Positions 1-8,276 of a DNA stretch of 11,649 nt are shown piece by piece; position 1 is the stretch's first letter, and every line of letters starts with the position of its first letter. The notes under the pieces are model-generated. The model searched no databases and was not told the origin of the DNA. It saw only the letters and a program-made list of their open reading frames with translations. Source of the DNA: a virus (taxonomy: Duplodnaviria > Heunggongvirae > Uroviricota > Caudoviricetes); the IMG/VR virus record IMGVR_UViG_2737471839_000019, positions 1 through 11,649 of that record, one strand, 5' to 3'. The position numbers and the translations under genes are program-made.

Positions 1-477
1 ATGAAACTCATCAGTAACGATCTGCGCGATGGCGATAAATTGCCGCATCGTCATGTCTTTAACGGCATGGGTTACGATGGCGATAATATTTCACCGCATC
101 TGGCGTGGGATGATGTTCCTGCGGGAACGAAAAGTTTTGTTGTCACCTGCTACGACCCGGATGCGCCAACCGGCTCCGGCTGGTGGCACTGGGTAGTTGT
201 TAACTTACCCGCTGATACCCGCGTATTACCGCAAGGGTTTGGCTCTGGTCTGGTAGCAATGCCAGACGGCGTTTTGCAGACGCGTACCGACTTTGGTAAA
301 ACCGGGTACGATGGCGCAGCACCGCCGAAAGGCGAAACTCATCGCTACATTTTTACCGTTCACGCGCTGGATATAGAACGTATTGATGTCGATGAAGGTG
401 CCAGCGGCGCGATGGTCGGGTTTAACGTTCATTTCCACTCTCTGGCAAGCGCCTCGATTACTGCGATGTTTAGTTAA
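1..477 (+). CDS. ybhB: PEBP/UPF0098-family protein YbhB (host chromosomal gene flanking the lambda attachment site)
   Basis: Complete 158-aa ORF from ATG at 1 to TAA at 475-477. The sequence (MKLISNDLRDGDKLPHRHVF...YDPDAPTGSGWWHWVV...) is recognised from memory as E. coli YbhB, and the PEBP-like motif DPDAP...GxxHY is present. GC content is host-like. Confidence 0.9.
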   Translation: MKLISNDLRDGDKLPHRHVFNGMGYDGDNISPHLAWDDVPAGTKSFVVTCYDPDAPTGSGWWHWVVVNLPADTRVLPQGFGSGLVAMPDGVLQTRTDFGKTGYDGAAPPKGETHRYIFTVHALDIERIDVDEGASGAMVGFNVHFHSLASASITAMFS

Positions 478-485
478 TCACTCTG

Positions 486-508
486 CCAGATGGCGCAATG
501 CCATCTGG
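486..508 (+). terminator. GC-rich hairpin just downstream of the ybhB stop, possible ybhB terminator
   Basis: Perfect 9-bp inverted repeat CCAGATGGC (486-494) / GCCATCTGG (500-508) with a 5-nt loop GCAAT, starting 9 nt after the ybhB stop. The trailing sequence is only moderately T-rich (TATCACTT, then T-runs at 535-548), so intrinsic-terminator status is uncertain. Confidence 0.4.
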
Positions 509-540
509 TATCACTTAAAGGTATTAAAAACAACTTTTTG

Positions 541-735
541 TCTTTTTACCTTCCCGTTTCGCTCAAGTTAGTATAAAAAAGCTGAACGATAAACATAAAA
601 AACTGTAAATATCAATATGTTATGAAAGATTTAGTCTAAATAATAGACTGCATAATACTACAAAACACAACATATCCAGTCACTATGAATCAACTACTTA
701 GATGGTATTAGTGACCTGTAACAGAGCATTAGCGC
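541..735. other. Prophage-host junction attR (lambda-type: B' arm, 15-bp core, P arm with arm-type Int sites)
   Basis: The 15-bp core TTAGTATAAAAAAGC (568-582) is the reverse complement of the lambda common core GCTTTTTTATACTAA. The ybhB-side flank (557-567, ttcgctcaag) matches the attB B' arm (reverse complement CTTGAGCGAA). The phage-side flank GCTGAACGA...(583 onward) matches the lambda attP P arm as recalled. Arm-type Int sites are present: CAGTCACTATG (679-689) and TTAGTGACCTG (707-717). The central P-arm segment (about 590-660) diverges from lambda. Confidence 0.8.
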
Positions 736-770
736 AAGGTGATTTTTTGTCCTCTTGCGCTAATTTTTTG
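728..770 (+). terminator. sib/tI-like hairpin with T-run (lambda int retroregulator/terminator homologue) on the phage side of attR
   Basis: 11-bp perfect inverted repeat ATTAGCGCAAG (728-738) / CTTGCGCTAAT (754-764) with a 15-nt loop, followed by TTTTTTG (765-770). It lies about 150-190 bp from the core on the P-arm side, where lambda sib/tI lies, and the flanking sequence GCATTAGCGCAAGG matches the reverse complement of recalled lambda sequence left of attP. The T-run is on the + strand, the direction of lambda int read-through. Confidence 0.55.
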
Positions 771-903
771 TCACCGCACTGGGTTAGTTGAATTTACAAC
801 CATGCTCAGTATCTCGATAAACGCAGAGAAATGATGCAGTGGTGGGCGGACTGGCTTGATGAGAAGTTTAAAGTTAGCTCATGAAAAATGACATACCAGT
901 TTA

Positions 904-929
904 TGGTATAAGTAGATCACGTGTATACT
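904..929 (+). promoter_or_regulatory. Candidate sigma70 promoter for the acyltransferase moron (extended -10 TGGTATAAG at 904-912, or -10 TATACT at 924-929)
   Basis: AT-rich 200-bp non-coding stretch upstream of the 975 start. TGnTATAAG resembles an extended -10, and TATACT sits about 45 nt upstream of the ATG. The -35 elements are weak. Sequence inspection only. Confidence 0.2.
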
Positions 930-974
930 GTCAAGGTTCTCATTAACAATCACACAAAATAATCGGAAAATACA

Positions 975-2096
975 ATGAAACACGTTACTTCTCTTGATGG
1001 AGCTAGAGGAATTGCCGTCATAATGGTCATGTTATTTCATTCTAATATACCTTGGGCATCTTTGGGGTGGGCTGGTGTTCCATTATTCTTTTGCCTTTCG
1101 GGGTTCCTGATCACATCAATTCTTGAGGAAGACAGGAAGTATAGATTTGCCGGGTATATTAAAAAGTTTCTAATAAATAGATCGTTGAGAATATTTCCTC
1201 TATTCTATCTATACCTTGCGGTTAATTTTGTAATAGTTAAATCAATGGGAGGAGGTACGGAAGGTTATTCTTGGTTTGTCACCTACTTACAAAACTATTA
1301 CATTGGTAATAACATAACAACACCAGGAATACTTGGACACACATGGTCTCTAGCTATAGAAGAACAATTCTATTGGATTTGGCCTATTGTAATATTTTTT
1401 ATTCGCCCACCAAAGGAAGTATGTTTTTTTGTATTTCTTGTGATAATCTCACTAGCTTCTAGATATTTTATATTCAATATTTCTGGAGGTAATCCGTATA
1501 TAACTAACGTAACTCTTATCAGTTGTGTTGATATGCTTGTCCTAGGCGCTATCTTTGCTCATATAAAGGATAGCAATAAAGCACCACAAATAGCCATGTT
1601 GACATTTATAGTTGGTTCTATTGTTACTGCATATGGCGTTATAAATATTGGGATTAATAATTTTTGGCATCCAGAGCAGTGGGTTGGCAAGGGATTATAC
1701 CTATTTACATCATTAGGGATGACATTCTCATCAATTATTTGGTTCTTATATTATTCATCAGGGAAAATGACAGGCCAGCAACAGACAGCAACAGCCAGCA
1801 ACATTTTACAACTATTTATAACGACTTGTAACAAGATATTTAACTTAAAATTCCTTAGATTTACAGGAAATATAAGTTACGGCCTTTACATGTGGCACTT
1901 GCTATGTTTTTCAATAGTAAGAAAAATGTTTTCATTTGTAGGAATCACAACTGATGGATTCACTTACATAGCTGCTTCATTTATTGTATCATATGCAGTT
2001 TCAATAGCATCATTTTACTTATTTGAGAGTTTTTTCCTTCGTTTTAAAGTAAAATCTTGCAGAGAAGGCCTTATTTTAAGAAATTCAGTAAAATAA
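975..2096 (+). CDS. Acyltransferase-3 family integral membrane O-acyltransferase (Oac/OafA-like; putative O-antigen acetylase for lysogenic conversion)
   Basis: 373-aa ORF that is very hydrophobic with multiple predicted transmembrane segments. The N-terminal motif LDGARGIAVIMVMLFHS is typical of the acyltransferase-3 family (conserved R-G and H in TM1). The gene is strongly AT-rich compared with flanking phage genes. It lies between the tailspike gene and att, where Sf6 oac and P22 gtrABC lie, and is convergent with the tailspike. A putative RBS GGAAAA precedes the ATG. Confidence 0.8.
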   Translation: MKHVTSLDGARGIAVIMVMLFHSNIPWASLGWAGVPLFFCLSGFLITSILEEDRKYRFAGYIKKFLINRSLRIFPLFYLYLAVNFVIVKSMGGGTEGYSWFVTYLQNYYIGNNITTPGILGHTWSLAIEEQFYWIWPIVIFFIRPPKEVCFFVFLVIISLASRYFIFNISGGNPYITNVTLISCVDMLVLGAIFAHIKDSNKAPQIAMLTFIVGSIVTAYGVINIGINNFWHPEQWVGKGLYLFTSLGMTFSSIIWFLYYSSGKMTGQQQTATASNILQLFITTCNKIFNLKFLRFTGNISYGLYMWHLLCFSIVRKMFSFVGITTDGFTYIAASFIVSYAVSIASFYLFESFFLRFKVKSCREGLILRNSVK

Positions 2097-2104
2097 ATTA
2101 TATG

Positions 2105-2137
2105 TTCGGCATCGGTATTTTATACACTGATGCCGAA
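2105..2137. terminator. Hairpin between the convergent acyltransferase and tailspike genes (candidate bidirectional terminator)
   Basis: Inverted repeat TTCGGCATC (2105-2113) / GATGCCGAA (2129-2137) with an inner GTAT/ATAC pairing, in the 48-bp gap between the two stop codons (2096 and 2145). Flanks are A/T-rich on both sides. Confidence 0.45.
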
Positions 2138-2144
2138 ATATCAT

Positions 2145-4055
2145 TTATTCTATAGACATTCTGCTATTTGCAAAATCATAAGCATCTTGTGATTTAATGA
2201 ATTGACAAACAAAATAGTCATTTAACCTAACTACACATCCAGATGTTGTTTTCAATGTTAACTTTACTGCGCCTGATTTTACTGCTCTCCCTACTCCAAA
2301 TGTGTGTACCCATTCACCTGTAGAGGTGTATATGTTGCCAAGCTGATCTGTATCACCTGAGAACGATCCTGTAACATCACCTGATACAAGTTTAATGCTA
2401 CATCCCCAAACAACATGGTAAAACTTAGCTATGTTAGCTGGTGAAATATTCAATGATATCGTGTAACCGGCTGGAATGTTTACCTGTGCACATTTATCAG
2501 ATAACGATCCGTCAGACACGCTTGAGCCATCAACGGTGCCAGTTCCTAAAAACTGCCATGGACCATCACCTGTAAATGACTCTGAATTAAGAATTTCGCC
2601 AGTTGGCAACCTTTTAACCCTTCCTTTTATTGAAGTGCCTCTTAAAGATATATCTACGTTCTGCAATGCTCCAAAGTGTTGTATTGCTATCGACTCAACG
2701 TGAATGCTAGGACCAATGTAACCATCACAGACAACATCCCTTGCAATAATCTTGCTTGTATCATCAATCTGAATATCGTAAATACCAGTAGCGCTATCAA
2801 ATCTGCACCCTCTGGCTATTAAAGTAGAATTTATTAGTTCAATGTTATTAAAATAGCACTGCTCAGCCACCACAGAAGGCATATCAACAAGTTTAAGTTG
2901 CCTTGGCTTCTGTACCACGCCATCAATATCAACAGTTTCGTCTTTAGCTACCAGTTCAAACCAAACGTTTGAAATTACCGGTGGAACAACAGGAGCAAGG
3001 TCATTACCATTCAAATATATACCGCCACCTTCGCATTGTTCCATGATGCAGTCCTGGATTTTTATTGCATCAATTCCACCTCCTGGTGCTGGTCCTCCAA
3101 TCTTTCCATTTATATAAATGCAATATTTTTTTATTCCAGCAAAGTGGCAATTTTGCCATGAATCTGAACCTGCGTGCATATTATTTTCAGATTGCGCCTT
3201 GTGTCCGTAATTGCATTCAAGATAGCTACAATGCTTATATGTATTACCAATGTTTCCTTTTGGCTTGTAAACTCCAATATCAAGACCGTCAAAAGCAATA
3301 TCCCTAAAGTTCCATCGGCCATCAAGATTAGACGATCCAAAAGCTATGCCAATTCCTTGTGGTGTGGAAATATTTCCCTCAATAAGGAAGTTCTGCGCGT
3401 GGCGATATTGCCATAATCGCGATGATTCAGATAGTGTAATGCTTGTCTTGCCAATGTCTGGCTTAAAGATAACATTATATCCGGTACCAATGAGATTGGC
3501 GTTTCCGGAAGTGTATTCTCCAGTATATGTACCAGGAGTAATTAACAGATCGTCGCGATATCTTGTGATATCAATAGCCTCTTGTAGGTCTACGTAATTA
3601 CCGGAGTGCTTGATATCATCCAGGTTGTTATAAACAGTTCGCACACCAATGCCAACTTTCTTTGCCCCTTCGATTCCTGCGAGATCTGCTTTAAACTGTT
3701 CAAACTCTGGCCTTAGTTGGTCAGGGTCATACTTAAGCACATTAGGGAAATAGAACTGCTGAGCACCGTACGCATCATAAACAGCCATAGAATGGCCTTG
3801 CACAGTTACGAACTTGGCAATCTGTCCGTTATATACCGGGTAACCAGCAGCGTTAATGATGATTGGTTGCGAAACAGGAACGTGAGAGCCGTCTTCATTC
3901 TCTACACAAACCTGAATCTGGTTTTCAGGATTTACCGGGTCCGTGTCAATTTTACCGATATAAATTTTGCCATTGGCTACGGCTTTAAAAGAACGAGCCA
4001 TAGTGAAGAGTTGCGAAGGCATGCTTACTACAACATTGGCTGTAATGTCTGTCAT
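2145..4055 (-). CDS. Tailspike protein: P22 gp9-type N-terminal head-binding domain fused to a divergent receptor-binding domain
   Basis: 636-aa ORF. The first ~115 residues ([46 protein letters not shown]...[15 protein letters not shown]...NVLKYDPDQ) closely match the P22/Sf6 tailspike head-binding domain as recalled. The remainder has a beta-helix-like composition with no similarity to P22 that I can recall. A GGAG Shine-Dalgarno lies 8 nt upstream of the ATG. It is the last gene of the late operon, as in P22-like phages. Confidence 0.9.
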
Positions 4056-4219
4056 TTAATTTGCTCCGGACGTAGCAATGCCGGACAAGATGCAACTTGC
4101 CAAGCATTGCACTAATGTCAGTTATGGTTTGTTAATTATGAGATGAGTCTATGCAAAGAGATCTGTTGAATATTGCGTTCTACATATTTGGTTTTTGCAC
4201 GTTCCTGGTGTTTGCGAAG

Positions 4220-6217
4220 CTATTCTGACAACGCATCAGACTTGGCACCCTGCGTCATAGCGTTAATAGCCTTTTGTGCCTGCTGCATGGCTTTCTCAAA
4301 AGATGTTGATCCGCGTGGGGTGTTTGCCATTCTGAGCATTGCATTTCTGAATGGTTCGCTCTCATAGGCGCGAGTAAGAAGTCCGTAGCTTACCGCTGCG
4401 CCAGTTGTCGCCGGGTTCATTGCCGTCCCATACCCGATAATGAACGGGATGGTTTGCTGCCCTGTTGGTGTTGTTACTGCCGCTTTTGCAGCCTGCTGCG
4501 TGGATTGCAGGTAGTTTTTCAATCCTTTCAGATAAGCGGCTTCCTGACCTTTAAATGTGATGCCAGTCTGGTTTTGCAGGATGTTAAGCTGCCGAAGGAA
4601 CTGGTCAGGGGAACCACCTGATTTCTCCATCGCCTTTCCAATGATGCCATTGCGCATTTGCGCCCTGCCAACACGACCAACTGAGTTATACAGAGTCTTA
4701 ATTTCCGATTTGTTCTTGCTGAATAGCATGTTGTTGACAACTTCCGGTGTCAGATCGCCTTTCATGAGAACATTCTTCAGCCTGGTATTCTTTAGTTTCG
4801 CTGCTTCGTCAGCATAGACGGCATTGGCCTGCTGATATTTACGGAGAGTATCGTTGCCAAGATTCTGACCAATGGCACCATTGATATCGTCGGTCATTGC
4901 CTTGTAAACGCGCTGAATGGCAGCATCGGAACGGTTTGGTAACACTGGTCGTTCCCCCTTCACGTCCATTCTGAACTGGCTGCGCAGATCGCTTAATTGC
5001 TTCAAATCCAGATTTACCGGACCATCAGGACCAGCATTGCGAATAAGCTCATCACGATAGGATTGAAGTTTTGAAATCGTCTCGTTATCAGCGACCTTAC
5101 CAAGCTTCTGCAGGTTAGATATCTCAGTATCAATCTGCTGAATTGCTCGCACAGGCTGAATATTTACTCCAGCCATGGCATTCTGAACCTGCTCCAGTCG
5201 ATTACCGGCGGCACGCCGAATTCCTGATGTTTTCGCTTTAAGGCTGTCAATAACAACTGCCGGATCGTACTCGCCGAATTTATCAGCAAATCTCTGCACC
5301 AACTGACTTCTCGCTTCCTGTTGCGTTGCTCTCATTCCGCTTGTGCCAGCCAGGGGGATATTTTCTGCTGTAGTCTGCGCCATTTTCCCGACGCGGGAAG
5401 TAGGCTGTAACAGGTCTGTGGTGTGCAGAGGAACTCCTTCACGCTCTGCAAATCTGATAGCCTGCTGCGCTTCTGGCGCAATAGCACCACGAACGCCACG
5501 ATAAGCAGCACCTAATCCACGTCCGGCAGCGTTAATAGCACCGCCAGCCAACACACCAACGCCTAAATCGGTGGCGAGTGCTTCCGCATCATCTTTCGCA
5601 CTATTTGCAGCAAGTGATCCAACTGCGTTTTCTGCGAGAAGTCGTGTTGCCCCATGAGCAATTCGACCAGCAAGTGTTGGTGCCTGTGTTGCCGCTCTCT
5701 CAACGCCAGCAGGAGTGAGGTAAGGCAATGCTTCAGCAAATACCCTTCCCTCTGTCGTTTGTGGAGTCAGCGCGCCTTGCTGAAGGCCAAAGTCCTGCTC
5801 TAATCCCTGCGTTGTTACTCGTGGCGCTGGTTGATATGTACCATCACCAATACCGAGTTTACCGCCAGCCCATGCCGCCGCGCTTGTTACAGCATCGGCA
5901 ACTGATGCAGGTATGTTTGCCACGTTCACGCCAGCCTGTACCAGTCCGCGACCAGTCTCTTTTACTGCTTCGCCAAGATCAGACATAAATCCACTTTGCT
6001 GTGGTTGTTGCTGTGCTACTGGTTGCTGTGTATCAACTGGCTGCGCAGATGGCAATGGATAGGCAGCATAGAAAGCTTGCTTAGCCTGCTCTGCATTTTC
6101 TCCGGCTTGCGGGGCCACGACTTCATTGAAGTATTGCTCCTGAGCCTGCGCTTTTTGTTCTGGTGCTAACGCCTGATACTGTGGAGAGGCGATAACATCT
6201 TTCCATGCTTTAGCCAT
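4220..6217 (-). CDS. Ejection (internal virion/DNA-injection) protein, P22 gp16-like
   Basis: 665-aa ORF in the position of gene 16 (last ejection-protein gene before the tailspike). Q/A/P-rich N-terminal region and Gly/Ala-rich central region. Its start overlaps the upstream gene's stop (TAATG). Assignment is by synteny and size; homology not verified. Confidence 0.7.
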   Translation of the reverse strand: MAKAWKDVIASPQYQALAPEQKAQAQEQYFNEVVAPQAGENAEQAKQAFYAAYPLPSAQPVDTQQPVAQQQPQQSGFMSDLGEAVKETGRGLVQAGVNVANIPASVADAVTSAAAWAGGKLGIGDGTYQPAPRVTTQGLEQDFGLQQGALTPQTTEGRVFAEALPYLTPAGVERAATQAPTLAGRIAHGATRLLAENAVGSLAANSAKDDAEALATDLGVGVLAGGAINAAGRGLGAAYRGVRGAIAPEAQQAIRFAEREGVPLHTTDLLQPTSRVGKMAQTTAENIPLAGTSGMRATQQEARSQLVQRFADKFGEYDPAVVIDSLKAKTSGIRRAAGNRLEQVQNAMAGVNIQPVRAIQQIDTEISNLQKLGKVADNETISKLQSYRDELIRNAGPDGPVNLDLKQLSDLRSQFRMDVKGERPVLPNRSDAAIQRVYKAMTDDINGAIGQNLGNDTLRKYQQANAVYADEAAKLKNTRLKNVLMKGDLTPEVVNNMLFSKNKSEIKTLYNSVGRVGRAQMRNGIIGKAMEKSGGSPDQFLRQLNILQNQTGITFKGQEAAYLKGLKNYLQSTQQAAKAAVTTPTGQQTIPFIIGYGTAMNPATTGAAVSYGLLTRAYESEPFRNAMLRMANTPRGSTSFEKAMQQAQKAINAMTQGAKSDALSE

Positions 6218-7572
6218 TAATCACCCCATAGTGAAGAAAAATTACTGCTGGCTGCTGGCTGTGATACCTGTGTAGGTTGAGATTGCTGCCGCTGAGATTT
6301 ACCAACATTAACGTTATATTGCTGGTTGTAATTGTCGGTATATTGCTGAATGTCGCGCATTGATTGTTGCAGTGCTTCAGGGCTTGAGAAATCAACCTGT
6401 GGCATACCTTGAAAATACATCTTTGCTTCTGCAACGGTGTTGATACCGGATGCCCCCATGTCTCTGGCTGCTGCAATGCCCTGATTCTGCATCTTTCCTT
6501 GGATTCGCTGTGCAGCGTTGTATAGTTTCCTCTGATCACCACCAGATGCACGGCTACGAATATCTGCACCAAGAGCAGGAGAACCTGAAGAGCCTGTAAT
6601 GCCAGTCATGAAGCCAAGATCGTCAATTGATGCACCAGAAATTGCATCAAGATCTTTCTTCATTGCGTAATTCTGCGCGCTTGCTGCCGATGTAGCCGGA
6701 GCGGCAATAGAGCCAGCAGGGACGCGAACCATATTCCCCTCGTTGTCGATACCTTCGTAGAACGCATTAGCCCCAGCGCCGTGAAGCTTCCCGCCTACCG
6801 TTACAGTTCTGCCATCTGCTAACTGAACTGTACGCTCATTATTCCCAACCGACCCTTTCATTGATGCTCTCTGCATCGATAAATCCTGACCGCGCATCGT
6901 GATATTCTGACCACGCGCTGTTAGCGCCTCGCCAGCCTGATTGCTGCGGATTGTCTCTGCCAGTCTGCCTCGGTCAATCTCACGACCAGCCATCTTGTCC
7001 TGAACATTGAAGTAATCAATCGGACCAAGAGCAGCCATTCCAAGGTGATCAACAAACTCACCAAATCCTGAAGGATTCTGCTGATACATCTGAGCAACGT
7101 TATTAGGGTCAACACCGACGCGAGTCAGTTCCTTGGCGTTGTTTTGCAGCCATGATTGCATTGCTTCTGGAGACGATGACGCAAGGCGTGCGCCAGCCGC
7201 TAAGGTGCCGATAGAATTACGCTGGTCTTCATCAATGAATCCCATGCCTTTACGAACGGATTCAATCTGGTCTGGATATTGAGTAGCCAACTGACGCAAA
7301 GCACCGCGATCACCAGACGCATAAGCATTAGCGTACGCCTGCTGAAATTCTTTCTGCCGCTGAGCCTGCTTTTCCTGCTTAAACACCCCTGCAATACCTG
7401 AAAGGCCTTGCAAAGCAGTCAGCCCAACATTGTTAGCGCCTGAACGCTCAATATCATTGTTCTGCCTGATAAGCTGAAGCGTATTGCCGATGTCATTTAC
7501 GCTCGGAGCGTTTGAGTTGACGCCGCCGATACCAGCCAACAATCCGCCGTTTGTTCCTTGCCAAGTAGCCAT
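6217..7572 (-). CDS. Ejection protein, P22 gp20-like
   Basis: 451-aa ORF (P22 gp20 is about 471 aa) between the gp7-like and gp16-like genes. A strong GGGG RBS lies 7 nt upstream of the ATG. Assignment is by synteny and size. Confidence 0.7.
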
Positions 7573-7581
7573 GATTACCCC

Positions 7582-8274
7582 TTAAAACAACGAGCCAAGC
7601 AATCCGATACCAGCACCAATGCCAGCGCCCCAAGGCGTTGATGTTCCCAAAAGGCTGGCAAGACCTGCACCGGCAATCGCACCAGACGTGCCACCGCTAA
7701 TTGCAGTCTGAAGACTTGATGGTTTATTGGCATTAGCAGCGGCAAGTGCTGCGCTTTGCTGTGCAATGCTGCTCATGTTGTTGGCGTACGTCTGCCCGGC
7801 GTTTGCCTGACCTTGCAGCGCACCAAGCCCAACGTTTGCCAGATTGTTGTAATTGCTCATCTGGTTTGATAACCAAGACTGACCGAGTGTCGGCGCGATC
7901 GTAGCCAGTTGATTGCTTGTGGCTGTCGAACCAAGTCCACCCGTCGCCTCCGCAGCAGCAAGACTCTGGTAACGCGCCTGACCTGCAAGGTCTTTATACT
8001 GCTGAGAGTTGTAATACTGATTAAGTGCCTGCCCCTGACCTTCTAAACTGGAAAGATTCTGCAACTGGTTAACATACTGCTCCGCAAGAGGCGTGAACGG
8101 AGCAAGGTTTTTCATGATCGTCTGCCACTGCTGATTTTGCAGGTCTGCTGCATACTTCTGAGCTTCTGCGGCATACTTTGCGCTTTTATCAGAACTTCCA
8201 CCTTTCCCACCCTTTTCAGGGCAATAAGGTTCCTCGCCGCGCAGTTTTCTGCCCAGCTTAAATGCATATAACAT
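7582..8274 (-). CDS. Ejection protein, P22 gp7-like
   Basis: 230-aa ORF (P22 gp7 is about 229 aa). The N-terminus MLYAFKLGRKLRGEEP resembles the gp7 N-terminus as recalled, and the C-terminus is Gly/Ala-rich and hydrophobic. Gene order is correct. Confidence 0.75.
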   Translation of the reverse strand: MLYAFKLGRKLRGEEPYCPEKGGKGGSSDKSAKYAAEAQKYAADLQNQQWQTIMKNLAPFTPLAEQYVNQLQNLSSLEGQGQALNQYYNSQQYKDLAGQARYQSLAAAEATGGLGSTATSNQLATIAPTLGQSWLSNQMSNYNNLANVGLGALQGQANAGQTYANNMSSIAQQSAALAAANANKPSSLQTAISGGTSGAIAGAGLASLLGTSTPWGAGIGAGIGLLGSLF

Positions 8275-8276
8275 GG

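What the first reader, a model, noticed from the sequence alone, without database searches (positions are those of the whole stretch)
2145..4055. Mosaic tailspike: conserved P22-type head-binding domain joined to a different, AT-richer receptor-binding domain
Residues 1 to about 115 are near-identical to the P22/Sf6 gp9 head-binding domain, while the remaining ~520 residues are unrelated to P22's endorhamnosidase domain as far as I can recall. The 5' part of the gene (about 3710-4055) has late-operon-like composition and the rest is visibly more AT-rich, pointing to a domain swap with a breakpoint near codon 115. The receptor-binding domain probably sets O-antigen or capsule specificity and may be functionally matched with the adjacent acyltransferase.
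Basis: partly seen in the sequence, partly recalled or inferred. Interest (0 to 1): 0.6.

Follow-up and report, generated by a model that had tools for sequence, protein, structure and literature searches.

The report
Mosaic P22-type tailspike, probably O109-specific
This is an ordinary but cleanly documented example of a prophage tail-spike gene built from swapped pieces: a standard P22-type virion-attachment domain joined to a beta-helix sugar-recognition domain borrowed from a family shared with unrelated lytic phages, most likely aimed at the E. coli O109 surface polysaccharide.

Summary
The finding holds. Window 2145-4055 (-) is an intact 636-aa tailspike at the attR end of a P22/Sf6-like prophage integrated in att-lambda beside ybhB.

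- **Head-binding domain:** residues 1-113 match Pfam Head_binding (E 3e-66). Identity is 97% to CUS-3, 96.5% to HK620, 91% to Sf6 and 75% to P22.
- **First junction:** all DNA and protein similarity to known P22-like phages stops at the KYDPDQ(L/F)R hinge, codons 107-114.
- **Receptor-binding domain:** the rest has no sequence match to any solved structure. It models confidently (pLDDT 91) as a right-handed beta-helix plus a C-terminal CBM-like beta-sandwich.
- **Family:** it belongs to a catalogued but unassigned RBP family (phrog_27367; 'X18' of Pas et al. 2023). Identity is 65% to Gamaleyavirus Bp4/PD38 and about 40% to LM33_P1, Golestan and ES17.
- **Second junction, new here:** a 1.1-kb cassette (codons 269-~633) is only ~62% identical to a sibling prophage whose flanks are 99.5-99.9% identical.
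- **Host serogroup, new here:** all 4 of 5426 complete E. coli genomes carrying this RBD clade are among the 18 with O109 wzy.
- **Composition:** this is a gradient, not a step at codon 115.

This is a new member of a well-known kind, and interest is modest.

The parts
2145..4055 (-). Tailspike gene, 636 codons plus stop; last gene of the late operon
   Evidence: ORF list. Pfam Head_binding. The exact protein is found on at least 6 public contigs in the same layout.
3714..4055 (-). Head-binding (virion-attachment) domain, codons 1-114
   Evidence: PF09008 over residues 1-113, E 3e-66. Identity 97% CUS-3, 96.5% HK620, 91% Sf6, 75% P22. 84-95% nucleotide identity to 31 phage records.
3714..3737 (-). 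Junction 1: hinge KYDPDQLR, codons 107-114. This is the last sequence shared with HK620, Sf6, CUS-3 and P22.
   Evidence: Codon-window identities fall from 24-30/30 to 6-12/30 after codon ~114. Megablast matches end at codons 110-120.
3250..3713 (-). Proximal RBD: neck helices plus the first beta-helix coils, codons 115-268. Includes the strongly conserved block of roughly residues 205-285.
   Evidence: 99.9% identical to sibling prophage L015 and at least 98% to L002. Invariant columns in A1/A2. AF2 secondary structure.
2155..3249 (-). Junction 2 and the swapped distal cassette, codons 269 to about 633: remaining beta-helix coils plus the C-terminal domain
   Evidence: About 62% nucleotide identity to L015 (412 mismatches), between flanks that are 99.5% (792-2153) and 99.9% (3250-4200) identical. 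The same break is seen against L002. Residues 401-636 are at most 68% identical to anything outside their own cluster.
2148..2610 (-). C-terminal CBM-like beta-sandwich, roughly residues 482-636 (boundary approximate)
   Evidence: AF2 strand pattern. Foldseek hits to CBM22, CBM4 and a porphyran-binding CBM jelly roll over ~131-159 columns, target TM 0.52-0.62.
975..2096 (+). Convergent AT3-family acyltransferase (373 aa); candidate O-antigen O-acetyltransferase (lysogenic conversion)
   Evidence: PF01757 E 4e-24. phrog_3333 O-acetyltransferase and phrog_6705 O-antigen acetylase. 26% identity to BTP1 GtrC and g341c O-antigen acetylases. Same position as Sf6 oac.
877..2099 (+). Acyltransferase cassette (moron): present or absent between the int-3' boundary sequence and the tailspike 3' end
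   Evidence: Missing from L002, L008 and L013, whose flanks align on both sides. Found in only 2 of 5426 complete genomes, both O109. GC 33.7%.
540..790 (.). Lambda-type attR (P-O-B'). Core TTAGTATAAAAAAGC lies at 568-582; this marks the prophage end.
   Evidence: Read directly from the sequence. 88-95% identity to the lambda/434 attP region, and to an annotated attR in phage DN1.
4056..4219 (-). 164-bp spacer between the gp16-type ejection-protein gene and the tailspike, with no immI region; Sf6-like arrangement
   Evidence: ORF list. The Sf6 layout has the same 164-bp gap. Siblings L002, L008 and L013 carry ant/arc/mnt here.

Best explanation
The gene encodes the tailspike of a P22/Sf6-like temperate podovirus, and the gene is a patchwork of modules.

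**Modules**
- Codons 1-114 are the genus-conserved head-binding domain. It docks the spike onto the tail hub (inferred by homology to P22 gp9 and Sf6 gp14).
- At the KYDPDQ hinge this domain is fused to an RBD made of a short helical neck, a right-handed parallel beta-helix and a C-terminal CBM-like beta-sandwich. This part is a high-confidence monomer model.

**Spread of the RBD.** The RBD belongs to a family that moves horizontally between P22-like prophages, Gamaleyavirus (Bp4/PD38), Kayfunavirus (LM33_P1), Kagunavirus (Golestan) and ES17. In each genus it sits on that genus's own N-terminal adaptor (shown).

**Second recombination point.** A second junction lies inside the invariant KPKGNIGN block at codon ~269. 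There a 1.1-kb distal cassette has been exchanged between otherwise near-identical prophages (shown).

**Likely function.** Every complete genome carrying this RBD clade is serogroup O109. The spike therefore most likely binds, and probably depolymerises, the O109 O-antigen as the first step of adsorption (inferred). The convergent acyltransferase most likely O-acetylates the same polysaccharide in lysogens (inferred). The consequence would be serotype conversion or superinfection exclusion, analogous to Sf6 oac.
For: **Head-binding domain and junction:**

**Gene context.** The neighbours are gp4, gp10, needle, gp14, gp7, gp20 and gp16 homologues, with the tailspike as the last late gene beside attR. 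The layout is identical to Sf6 oac/gene 14/gene 13.

**Fold.**
- AF2 model of residues 113-636: pLDDT 91, pTM 0.86.
- Foldseek probability 1.0 to K2-2 TSP and the Sf6, HK620 and P22 tailspikes, plus CBM jelly rolls for the C-terminus.

**Family.**
- phrog_27367, E 2e-132.
- 65% identity to Bp4/PD38, 57% to XT34, and 39-41% to LM33_P1 and Golestan over 97-99% of the RBD.
- BFVD TMq 0.94 for PD38 and 0.91 for ES17.
- The same RBD occurs on PF09008, PF18668 and PF03906 adaptors.
- 299 cluster representatives in the 50%-identity library.

**Internal cassette:**

**O109 link.**
- The rfb locus of strain 47-1826 is annotated with O109 wzx and wzy.
- O109 wzy is present in 18 of 5426 genomes.
- The RBD clade is present in 4 of 5426 genomes, and all 4 are in that list. 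The hypergeometric probability is about 8e-11, ignoring relatedness.
- The four genomes come from different countries and hosts and use two integration sites.

**Acyltransferase:**
Against: - No biochemical data exist for any close relative.
- The nearest characterised members point elsewhere. LM33_P1 targets O25b strains. ES17-TFP bound heparan sulfate and showed no reported enzymatic activity (PMC7885116).
- Catalytic residues cannot be assigned. No solved structure exceeds 14% identity.
- The serogroup of the window's own host is unknown. The O109 link rests on four complete genomes and on PGAP's naming of wzx/wzy.
- Two alleles that differ by ~35% in the distal RBD both occur in O109 hosts. 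Either the specificity tolerates that divergence or the serogroup-level inference is too coarse.
- The acyltransferase is missing from several carriers, so it is not required for the spike to function.
- The model is a monomer, so the trimer and any inter-subunit active site are unseen.
Confidence: 0.7

Rival explanations
1. The RBD recognises a capsular (K) polysaccharide or another surface glycan that merely co-varies with O109, rather than the O109 O-antigen itself.
For: Structural neighbours include many capsule depolymerases: Klebsiella K2-2 TSP, Kp32gp38, Depo32 and K5 lyase. CUS-3 shows that a P22-type head-binding domain can carry a capsule-specific endosialidase. The relative ES17-TFP binds a glycosaminoglycan (PMC7885116).
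Against: The four carrier genomes come from chicken, deer and two humans on three continents. The trait shown to be common to them here is O109 wzy. P22-like prophage tailspikes usually track the host O-serogroup (PMC10408124). An O-antigen-type AT3 acetyltransferase sits alongside. Capsule loci were not examined.
Confidence: 0.12
2. The RBD is a non-catalytic adhesin, or it modifies rather than cleaves the receptor (for example a lyase, epimerase or esterase-like chemistry). It would then not be an endoglycosidase of the P22, Sf6 or HK620 type.
Against: D335, E367 and D420 are invariant, and D298, E339 and E398 are nearly invariant, across 39 sequences down to 32% identity. That pattern is typical of enzymatic beta-helix spikes. 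Podoviral short spikes generally have to cut through the O-antigen layer to reach the membrane.
Confidence: 0.2
3. The gene is a decaying remnant of a defective prophage, and its mosaic look reflects decay rather than functional module exchange.
For: One carrier (LF4-1) has the gene disrupted by IS630/ISEc33 and lacks the rest of the prophage. The window shows only one prophage end.
Against: The ORF is full length and every late-gene neighbour in the window is intact. The protein is 100% conserved on at least 6 independent contigs, and it differs by only 4 nucleotides from the copy in 47-1826. The cassette boundaries are in frame and lie in conserved protein blocks.
Confidence: 0.04

Closest known systems
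Tailspikes of P22-like phages (Lederbergvirus): P22 gp9, Sf6 gp14, HK620 gp9, CUS-3 endosialidase
   Same: The N-terminal head-binding domain is shared, at 75-97% identity, and the KYDPDQ hinge is the module boundary. The gene position is the same: last late gene, next to the att/conversion region. The trimeric-spike-type beta-helix fold class is shared. The convergent oac-like gene and the 164-bp gap to the gp16 gene match Sf6.
   Different: The RBD has no detectable sequence similarity to any of them, and structural TM-scores are only 0.25-0.42. The C-terminus is a CBM-like jelly roll rather than the P22 or Sf6 C-terminal domains. The predicted target is O109, not Salmonella O:4/O:9, S. flexneri Y, O18A1 or K1.
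RBP subtype 'X18' of Pas et al. 2023 (PMC10408124, supplementary file 1) / phrog_27367: PD38/Bp4 RBP1, LM33_P1 Gp17, Golestan RBP, ES17 tail fibre
   Same: The whole RBD is homologous, at 39-65% identity over 97-99% of its length. The predicted fold is near-identical, with TMq 0.91-0.94. The logic of horizontal exchange between genera on genus-specific adaptors is the same.
   Different: Here the RBD is mounted on the P22 head-binding domain in a temperate phage. Its distal 236 residues are at most 68% identical to any relative outside its own cluster. Pas et al. left the subtype's serogroup unassigned. LM33_P1 is linked to O25b, whereas this clade is linked to O109.
Sf6 Oac, BTP1 GtrC and g341c O-antigen acetyltransferases (for the neighbouring gene)
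   Same: It is an AT3 (PF01757) integral-membrane acyltransferase encoded between the tailspike and the att site of a P22-like prophage, convergent with the tailspike.
   Different: Identity is only ~26%, GC is very low (33.7%), and the substrate is unknown. It behaves as a 1.2-kb presence/absence cassette.

Membership tests
P22-like (Lederbergvirus) tailspike | N-terminal head-binding domain (Pfam PF09008) | tested here: met
   Residues 1-113, E 3e-66, 221 bits against a 24-bit cut-off. PDB hits to Sf6 and P22 head-binding domains.
P22-like (Lederbergvirus) tailspike | Module boundary at the conserved YDPDQ hinge, about residue 110-115 | tested here: met
   Identity to HK620, Sf6 and CUS-3 ends after codon ~114.
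P22-like (Lederbergvirus) tailspike | Position as the last late-operon gene, downstream of the ejection-protein genes (gp7/gp20/gp16) and next to the att/conversion region | tested here: met
   Pfam assignments of the neighbours. attR lies at 540-790. Same layout as Sf6.
P22-like (Lederbergvirus) tailspike | Right-handed parallel beta-helix receptor-binding domain | tested here: met
P22-like (Lederbergvirus) tailspike | Homotrimer with endoglycosidase activity on the host polysaccharide | not testable with these tools
   Only a monomer model is available; no biochemistry.
P22 gp9 endorhamnosidase RBD family | Sequence homology of residues ~125-666 to P22 gp9 | tested here: not met
   phmmer against the PDB aligns only residues 1-120. 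Foldseek TM is 0.23-0.27 to 1clw and 1qrb.
RBP subtype X18 (Pas et al. 2023) / phrog_27367 | At least 30% identity over at least 60% of the RBD to subtype members (PD38_RBP1, LM33_P1_RBP, Golestan_RBP) | tested here: met
   65%, 39% and 41% identity over 97-99% of the RBD. phrog_27367 E 2e-132. Subtype membership of those phages comes from PMC10408124 supplementary file 1.
O109-specific tailspike (proposed here) | Carriage restricted to O109 hosts | tested here: met
   4 of 4 carrier genomes lie within the 18 of 5426 O109-wzy genomes. The window's own host was not typed.
O109-specific tailspike (proposed here) | Binding or cleavage of O109 O-polysaccharide | not testable with these tools
   Needs purified protein and O109 LPS.
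Phage O-antigen O-acetyltransferase (Oac/GtrC type), neighbouring gene | AT3 domain (PF01757), encoded beside the tailspike and att site of a temperate phage | tested here: met
   PF01757 E 4e-24. phrog_3333 and phrog_6705. Position as for Sf6 oac.
Phage O-antigen O-acetyltransferase (Oac/GtrC type), neighbouring gene | O-acetylation of the host O-antigen in lysogens | not testable with these tools
   Needs NMR or mass spectrometry of LPS from lysogen versus cured strain.

The most novel reading that the evidence does not exclude
The 1.1-kb distal cassette polymorphism occurs among O109 lysogens with otherwise near-identical flanks, and it sits beside a mobile acetyltransferase cassette. It could therefore reflect an ongoing within-serogroup arms race. 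In that reading, the two RBD alleles discriminate between modification states of the O109 antigen, for example O-acetylated versus unmodified. Prophages would then re-tool the spike by homologous exchange anchored in the invariant KPKGNIGN block. A related possibility is that the family uses a not-yet-described catalytic site able to cut a polysaccharide containing L-RhaN3N.
Probability: 0.15. Interest if true: 0.5.

Novelty: new member of a known kind. Interest (0 to 1): 0.27.

Why it matters
The modular tailspike architecture is textbook, so the finding adds no new principle. It has three practical uses.

1. It gives a serogroup hypothesis (O109) for one clade of an RBP family that the main published catalogue left unassigned ('X18'). 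No paper in the searched library links a tailspike to O109.
2. It provides a very clean natural example of an intragenic recombination point inside a beta-helix: 100% identical flanks around a 62% identical cassette. Such a point can serve as a splice site for engineering chimeric spikes.
3. It pairs a candidate O109 depolymerase with a candidate O109-modifying acetyltransferase. O109 is common in poultry and in some STEC, so both proteins could be useful typing or biocontrol reagents.

Tried and rejected
- **Profile re-search of the 5.8-billion-protein set** with an RBD alignment found nothing beyond the first 22 hits. The ~40% identity relatives had to be reached by seeding with LM33_P1.
- **NCBIfam** gave no hit for either the tailspike or the acyltransferase.
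- **A profile search of PDB sequences** added only adaptor-domain hits that belong to other family members, plus a weak extension into the first Sf6 beta-helix coils. Nothing assigns a catalytic type.
- **Composition as evidence for the junction** was rejected. The GC step at codon 115 is not significant.
- **A strict allele-to-acyltransferase linkage** was rejected. The variant-B protein P0004 also has the acyltransferase next to it, whereas P0007, P393-F10 and 19AR0254 lack it.
- **The O109 structure paper** (PMID 20964722) is not held, so only its title could be used.
- **Host serotypes of Bp4, PD38 and XT34** could not be found. The only information recovered was that the Bp4-identical phage Uz-1 was isolated on an avian pathogenic E. 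coli host.
I could therefore not check whether the invariant acidic residues cluster in space.
- **Promoter and terminator scans** gave nothing above background.

Full report
**1. Context**

The window is the right end of a P22/Sf6-like prophage.

| Window coordinates | Strand | Feature |
|---|---|---|
| 1-477 | + | host ybhB |
| 478-974 | | non-coding stretch |
| 975-2096 | + | AT3 acyltransferase |
| 2145-4055 | - | tailspike |
| 4220-6217 | - | gp16 homologue (no Pfam hit; PF26808 Phage_P22_gp16 on the identical contigs) |
| 6217-7572 | - | gp20 homologue |
| 7582-8274 | - | gp7 homologue |
| 8277-8735 | - | gp14 homologue (DUF2824) |
| 8732-9580 | - | needle with Sf6-type knob |
| 9580-10998 | - | gp10 homologue |
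| 11007-11489 | - | gp4 homologue |

The non-coding stretch holds a lambda-type attR. The core TTAGTATAAAAAAGC lies at 568-582, which is the reverse complement of GCTTTTTTATACTAA. The attB B' arm lies on the ybhB side, and a lambda/434-like P arm lies on the phage side. The prophage therefore sits in att-lambda.

**2. Checking the observation**

The ORF is as stated. Pfam Head_binding covers residues 1-113 at E 3e-66. Every PDB sequence hit is limited to residues 1-120.

Identity over residues 1-114 is 97.4% to CUS-3, 96.5% to HK620, 91.2% to Sf6 and 74.6% to P22. Megablast against 50,697 phage records matches only the first 110-120 codons. A codon-window comparison shows similarity collapsing directly after KYDPDQ(L/F)R, codons 107-114.

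Composition supports the idea only loosely:

| Region | GC |
|---|---|
| late genes | 50.2% |
| head-binding domain | 43.9% |
| codons 115-275 | 41.2% |
| codons 276-636 | 39.2% |
| acyltransferase | 33.7% |

The step at codon 115 is not significant (p=0.47). The head-binding domain is already below the late genes (p=0.02). The evidence for the junction is homology, not composition.

**3. What the receptor-binding domain is**

*Fold.*
- An AF2 model of residues 113-636, built from 39 homologues, reached pLDDT 91 and pTM 0.86.
- It shows neck helices, a long run of short strands typical of a beta-helix, and a C-terminal beta-sandwich.
- Foldseek gives probability 1.0 but TM 0.25-0.42 to K2-2 TSP and the Sf6, HK620 and P22 spikes. 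It also gives separate hits of ~131-159 columns to CBM22, CBM4 and porphyran-CBM jelly rolls, which I assign to the C-terminal beta-sandwich.
- The domain is therefore 'unrelated to P22's endorhamnosidase' in sequence, but it has the same fold class.

*Family.*
- By sequence it belongs to phrog_27367 (E 2e-132).
- tblastn finds 65% identity to the Gamaleyavirus Bp4/PD38/Uz-1 tail fibre and 57% to XT34. It finds 39-41% to Kagunavirus Golestan-type and Kayfunavirus LM33_P1-type fibres, over 97-99% of the RBD.
- In BFVD the PD38 and ES17 fibres superpose at TMq 0.94 and 0.91.
- The same RBD is found behind three adaptors: the P22 head-binding domain (PF09008), the TSP N-terminal domain (PF18668) and the T7 fibre N-terminus (PF03906).
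- An exhaustive HMMER scan finds 299 representative clusters.
- Pas et al. 2023 list PD38_RBP1, Golestan_RBP and LM33_P1_RBP as RBP subtype 'X18' with no serogroup assigned (PMC10408124 supplement).

**4. A second, sharper junction**

Against the 635-aa tailspike of strain P393-F10, nucleotide identity is at least 98% up to codon ~275 and then ~60% to the end.

Against contig L015 (an argW-integrated relative) the pattern is cleaner still:

| Window segment | Content | Mismatches | Identity |
|---|---|---|---|
| 792-2153 | acyltransferase region | 7 | 99.5% |
| ~2155-3249 | distal cassette | 412 | ~62% |
| 3250-4200 | proximal tailspike and upstream | 1 | 99.9% |

The right crossover lies in the codons for the invariant KPKGNIGN motif. 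The left one lies in the last ~12 codons.

Segment-wise, residues 276-400 are closest (85-90%) to other P22-type spikes (P0010, P0011). Residues 401-636 are at most 68% identical to anything outside their own cluster. The gene is thus at least a four-piece patchwork.

**5. Host serogroup**

- Strain 47-1826 carries the same tailspike with 4 nucleotide differences. Its rfb locus is annotated by PGAP as O109 wzx/wzy.
- O109 wzy occurs in 18 of 5426 complete genomes.
- A sensitive blastn of the RBD finds only four genomes: 47-1826, LF4-1, P393-F10 and 19AR0254. All four are in the O109 list.
- The chance expectation is about 8e-11 if the genomes were independent.
- The four come from chicken, deer and two humans in four countries. 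Their prophages use two att sites (argW and att-lambda), and both RBD alleles are represented.
- Following the published rationale that single-spike prophages match their host's O-antigen (PMC10408124), I infer O109 specificity.
- O109 polysaccharide contains L-RhaN3N derivatives. This comes only from the title of Perepelov et al. 2011, as cited in PMC7685785.

**6. The acyltransferase**

It is an AT3 protein (PF01757) matching phrog_3333 and phrog_6705. It shares ~26% identity with BTP1 GtrC and g341c O-antigen acetylases. It is placed exactly like Sf6 oac.

It behaves as a 1.2-kb cassette (877-2099). The cassette is absent from L002, L008 and L013. It is present in only two complete genomes, both O109 and both beside this spike.

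It accompanies either RBD allele: the window's own allele, and the variant-B allele of P0004. The match is therefore to the serogroup, not to one allele.

**7. Mechanism**

*Shown:*
- the domain architecture;
- the recombination boundaries;
- family membership;
- the host association.

*Inferred:*
- trimeric spikes dock through the head-binding domain;
- the beta-helix binds and probably cleaves O109 O-antigen, letting the needle reach the outer membrane;
- the lysogen's acetyltransferase alters the same polymer.

Candidate catalytic acids are the invariant D335, E367 and D420, and the nearly invariant D298, E339 and E398. Their geometry could not be checked.

**8. Comparison and novelty**

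The fusion of a head-binding domain (aa 1-115) to unrelated receptor domains is described explicitly for P22-like phages (PMC2629481). Exchange of RBDs among exactly these genera is also published (PMC10408124).

This gene is therefore a new member of a known kind. The incremental points are:
- the O109 assignment for one clade of 'X18';
- the precisely mapped intra-helix cassette swap;
- the spike/acetyltransferase pairing.

**9. Verdict**

- Observation: confirmed.
- Interpretation: supported, with refinements.
- Novelty: low.
- Interest: 0.27.

Noticed in passing
window 540-790 (core 568-582): This is a lambda-type attR (P-O-B'). It has the exact lambda core, the attB B' arm next to ybhB, and a lambda/434-like P arm with a hairpin-plus-T-run terminator at about 732-770. 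A P22-like prophage is therefore using att-lambda.
   Followed up: partly
window 792-884: This 93-bp stretch is 99.5% identical to the 3' end of intS in argW-integrated relatives (L001 6001-6093). The same piece abuts the tailspike 3' end in L002, L008 and L013, and it overlaps similarity to the lambda/434 attP flank. It looks like a recurrent boundary sequence or int remnant.
   Followed up: partly
window 1776-1803 vs L001 6985-7072: The acyltransferase of strain 47-1826 carries an in-frame 60-bp tandem duplication relative to the window (393 vs 373 aa). LF4-1 has a 376-aa version.
   Followed up: no
window 4056-4219: There is no immI region (mnt/arc/ant) between the tailspike and the gp16 gene, only a 164-bp gap exactly as in Sf6. 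Sibling prophages with the related tailspike (L002, L008, L013) carry ant/arc/mnt there.
   Followed up: partly
L003 (E. coli LF4-1) 6363-8384: In this O109 deer isolate the same tailspike allele is split by an IS630-like ISEc33 insertion. The rest of the prophage is gone, with IS1, torI and dsdC following. This is a decayed copy that retains an intact acyltransferase.
   Followed up: no
window 7412-10056 vs L011: Contig BGAT01000031.1 is 99.9% identical to window 1-6241 but only 90% identical over 7412-10056 (gp7 to gp10). This indicates further mosaicism within the ejection-protein and needle region between prophages sharing the identical tailspike.
   Followed up: no
window 4220-6217: The gp16-type ejection protein had no Pfam-A hit in the local scan. 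The precomputed annotation lists PF26808 (Phage_P22_gp16), and PGAP calls the 47-1826 orthologue a 'lytic transglycosylase domain-containing protein'.
   Followed up: no
L013 (GCA_005396085.1): A third integration site was seen for prophages with the sibling tailspike allele: next to dacD-sbmC, with no acyltransferase.
   Followed up: no
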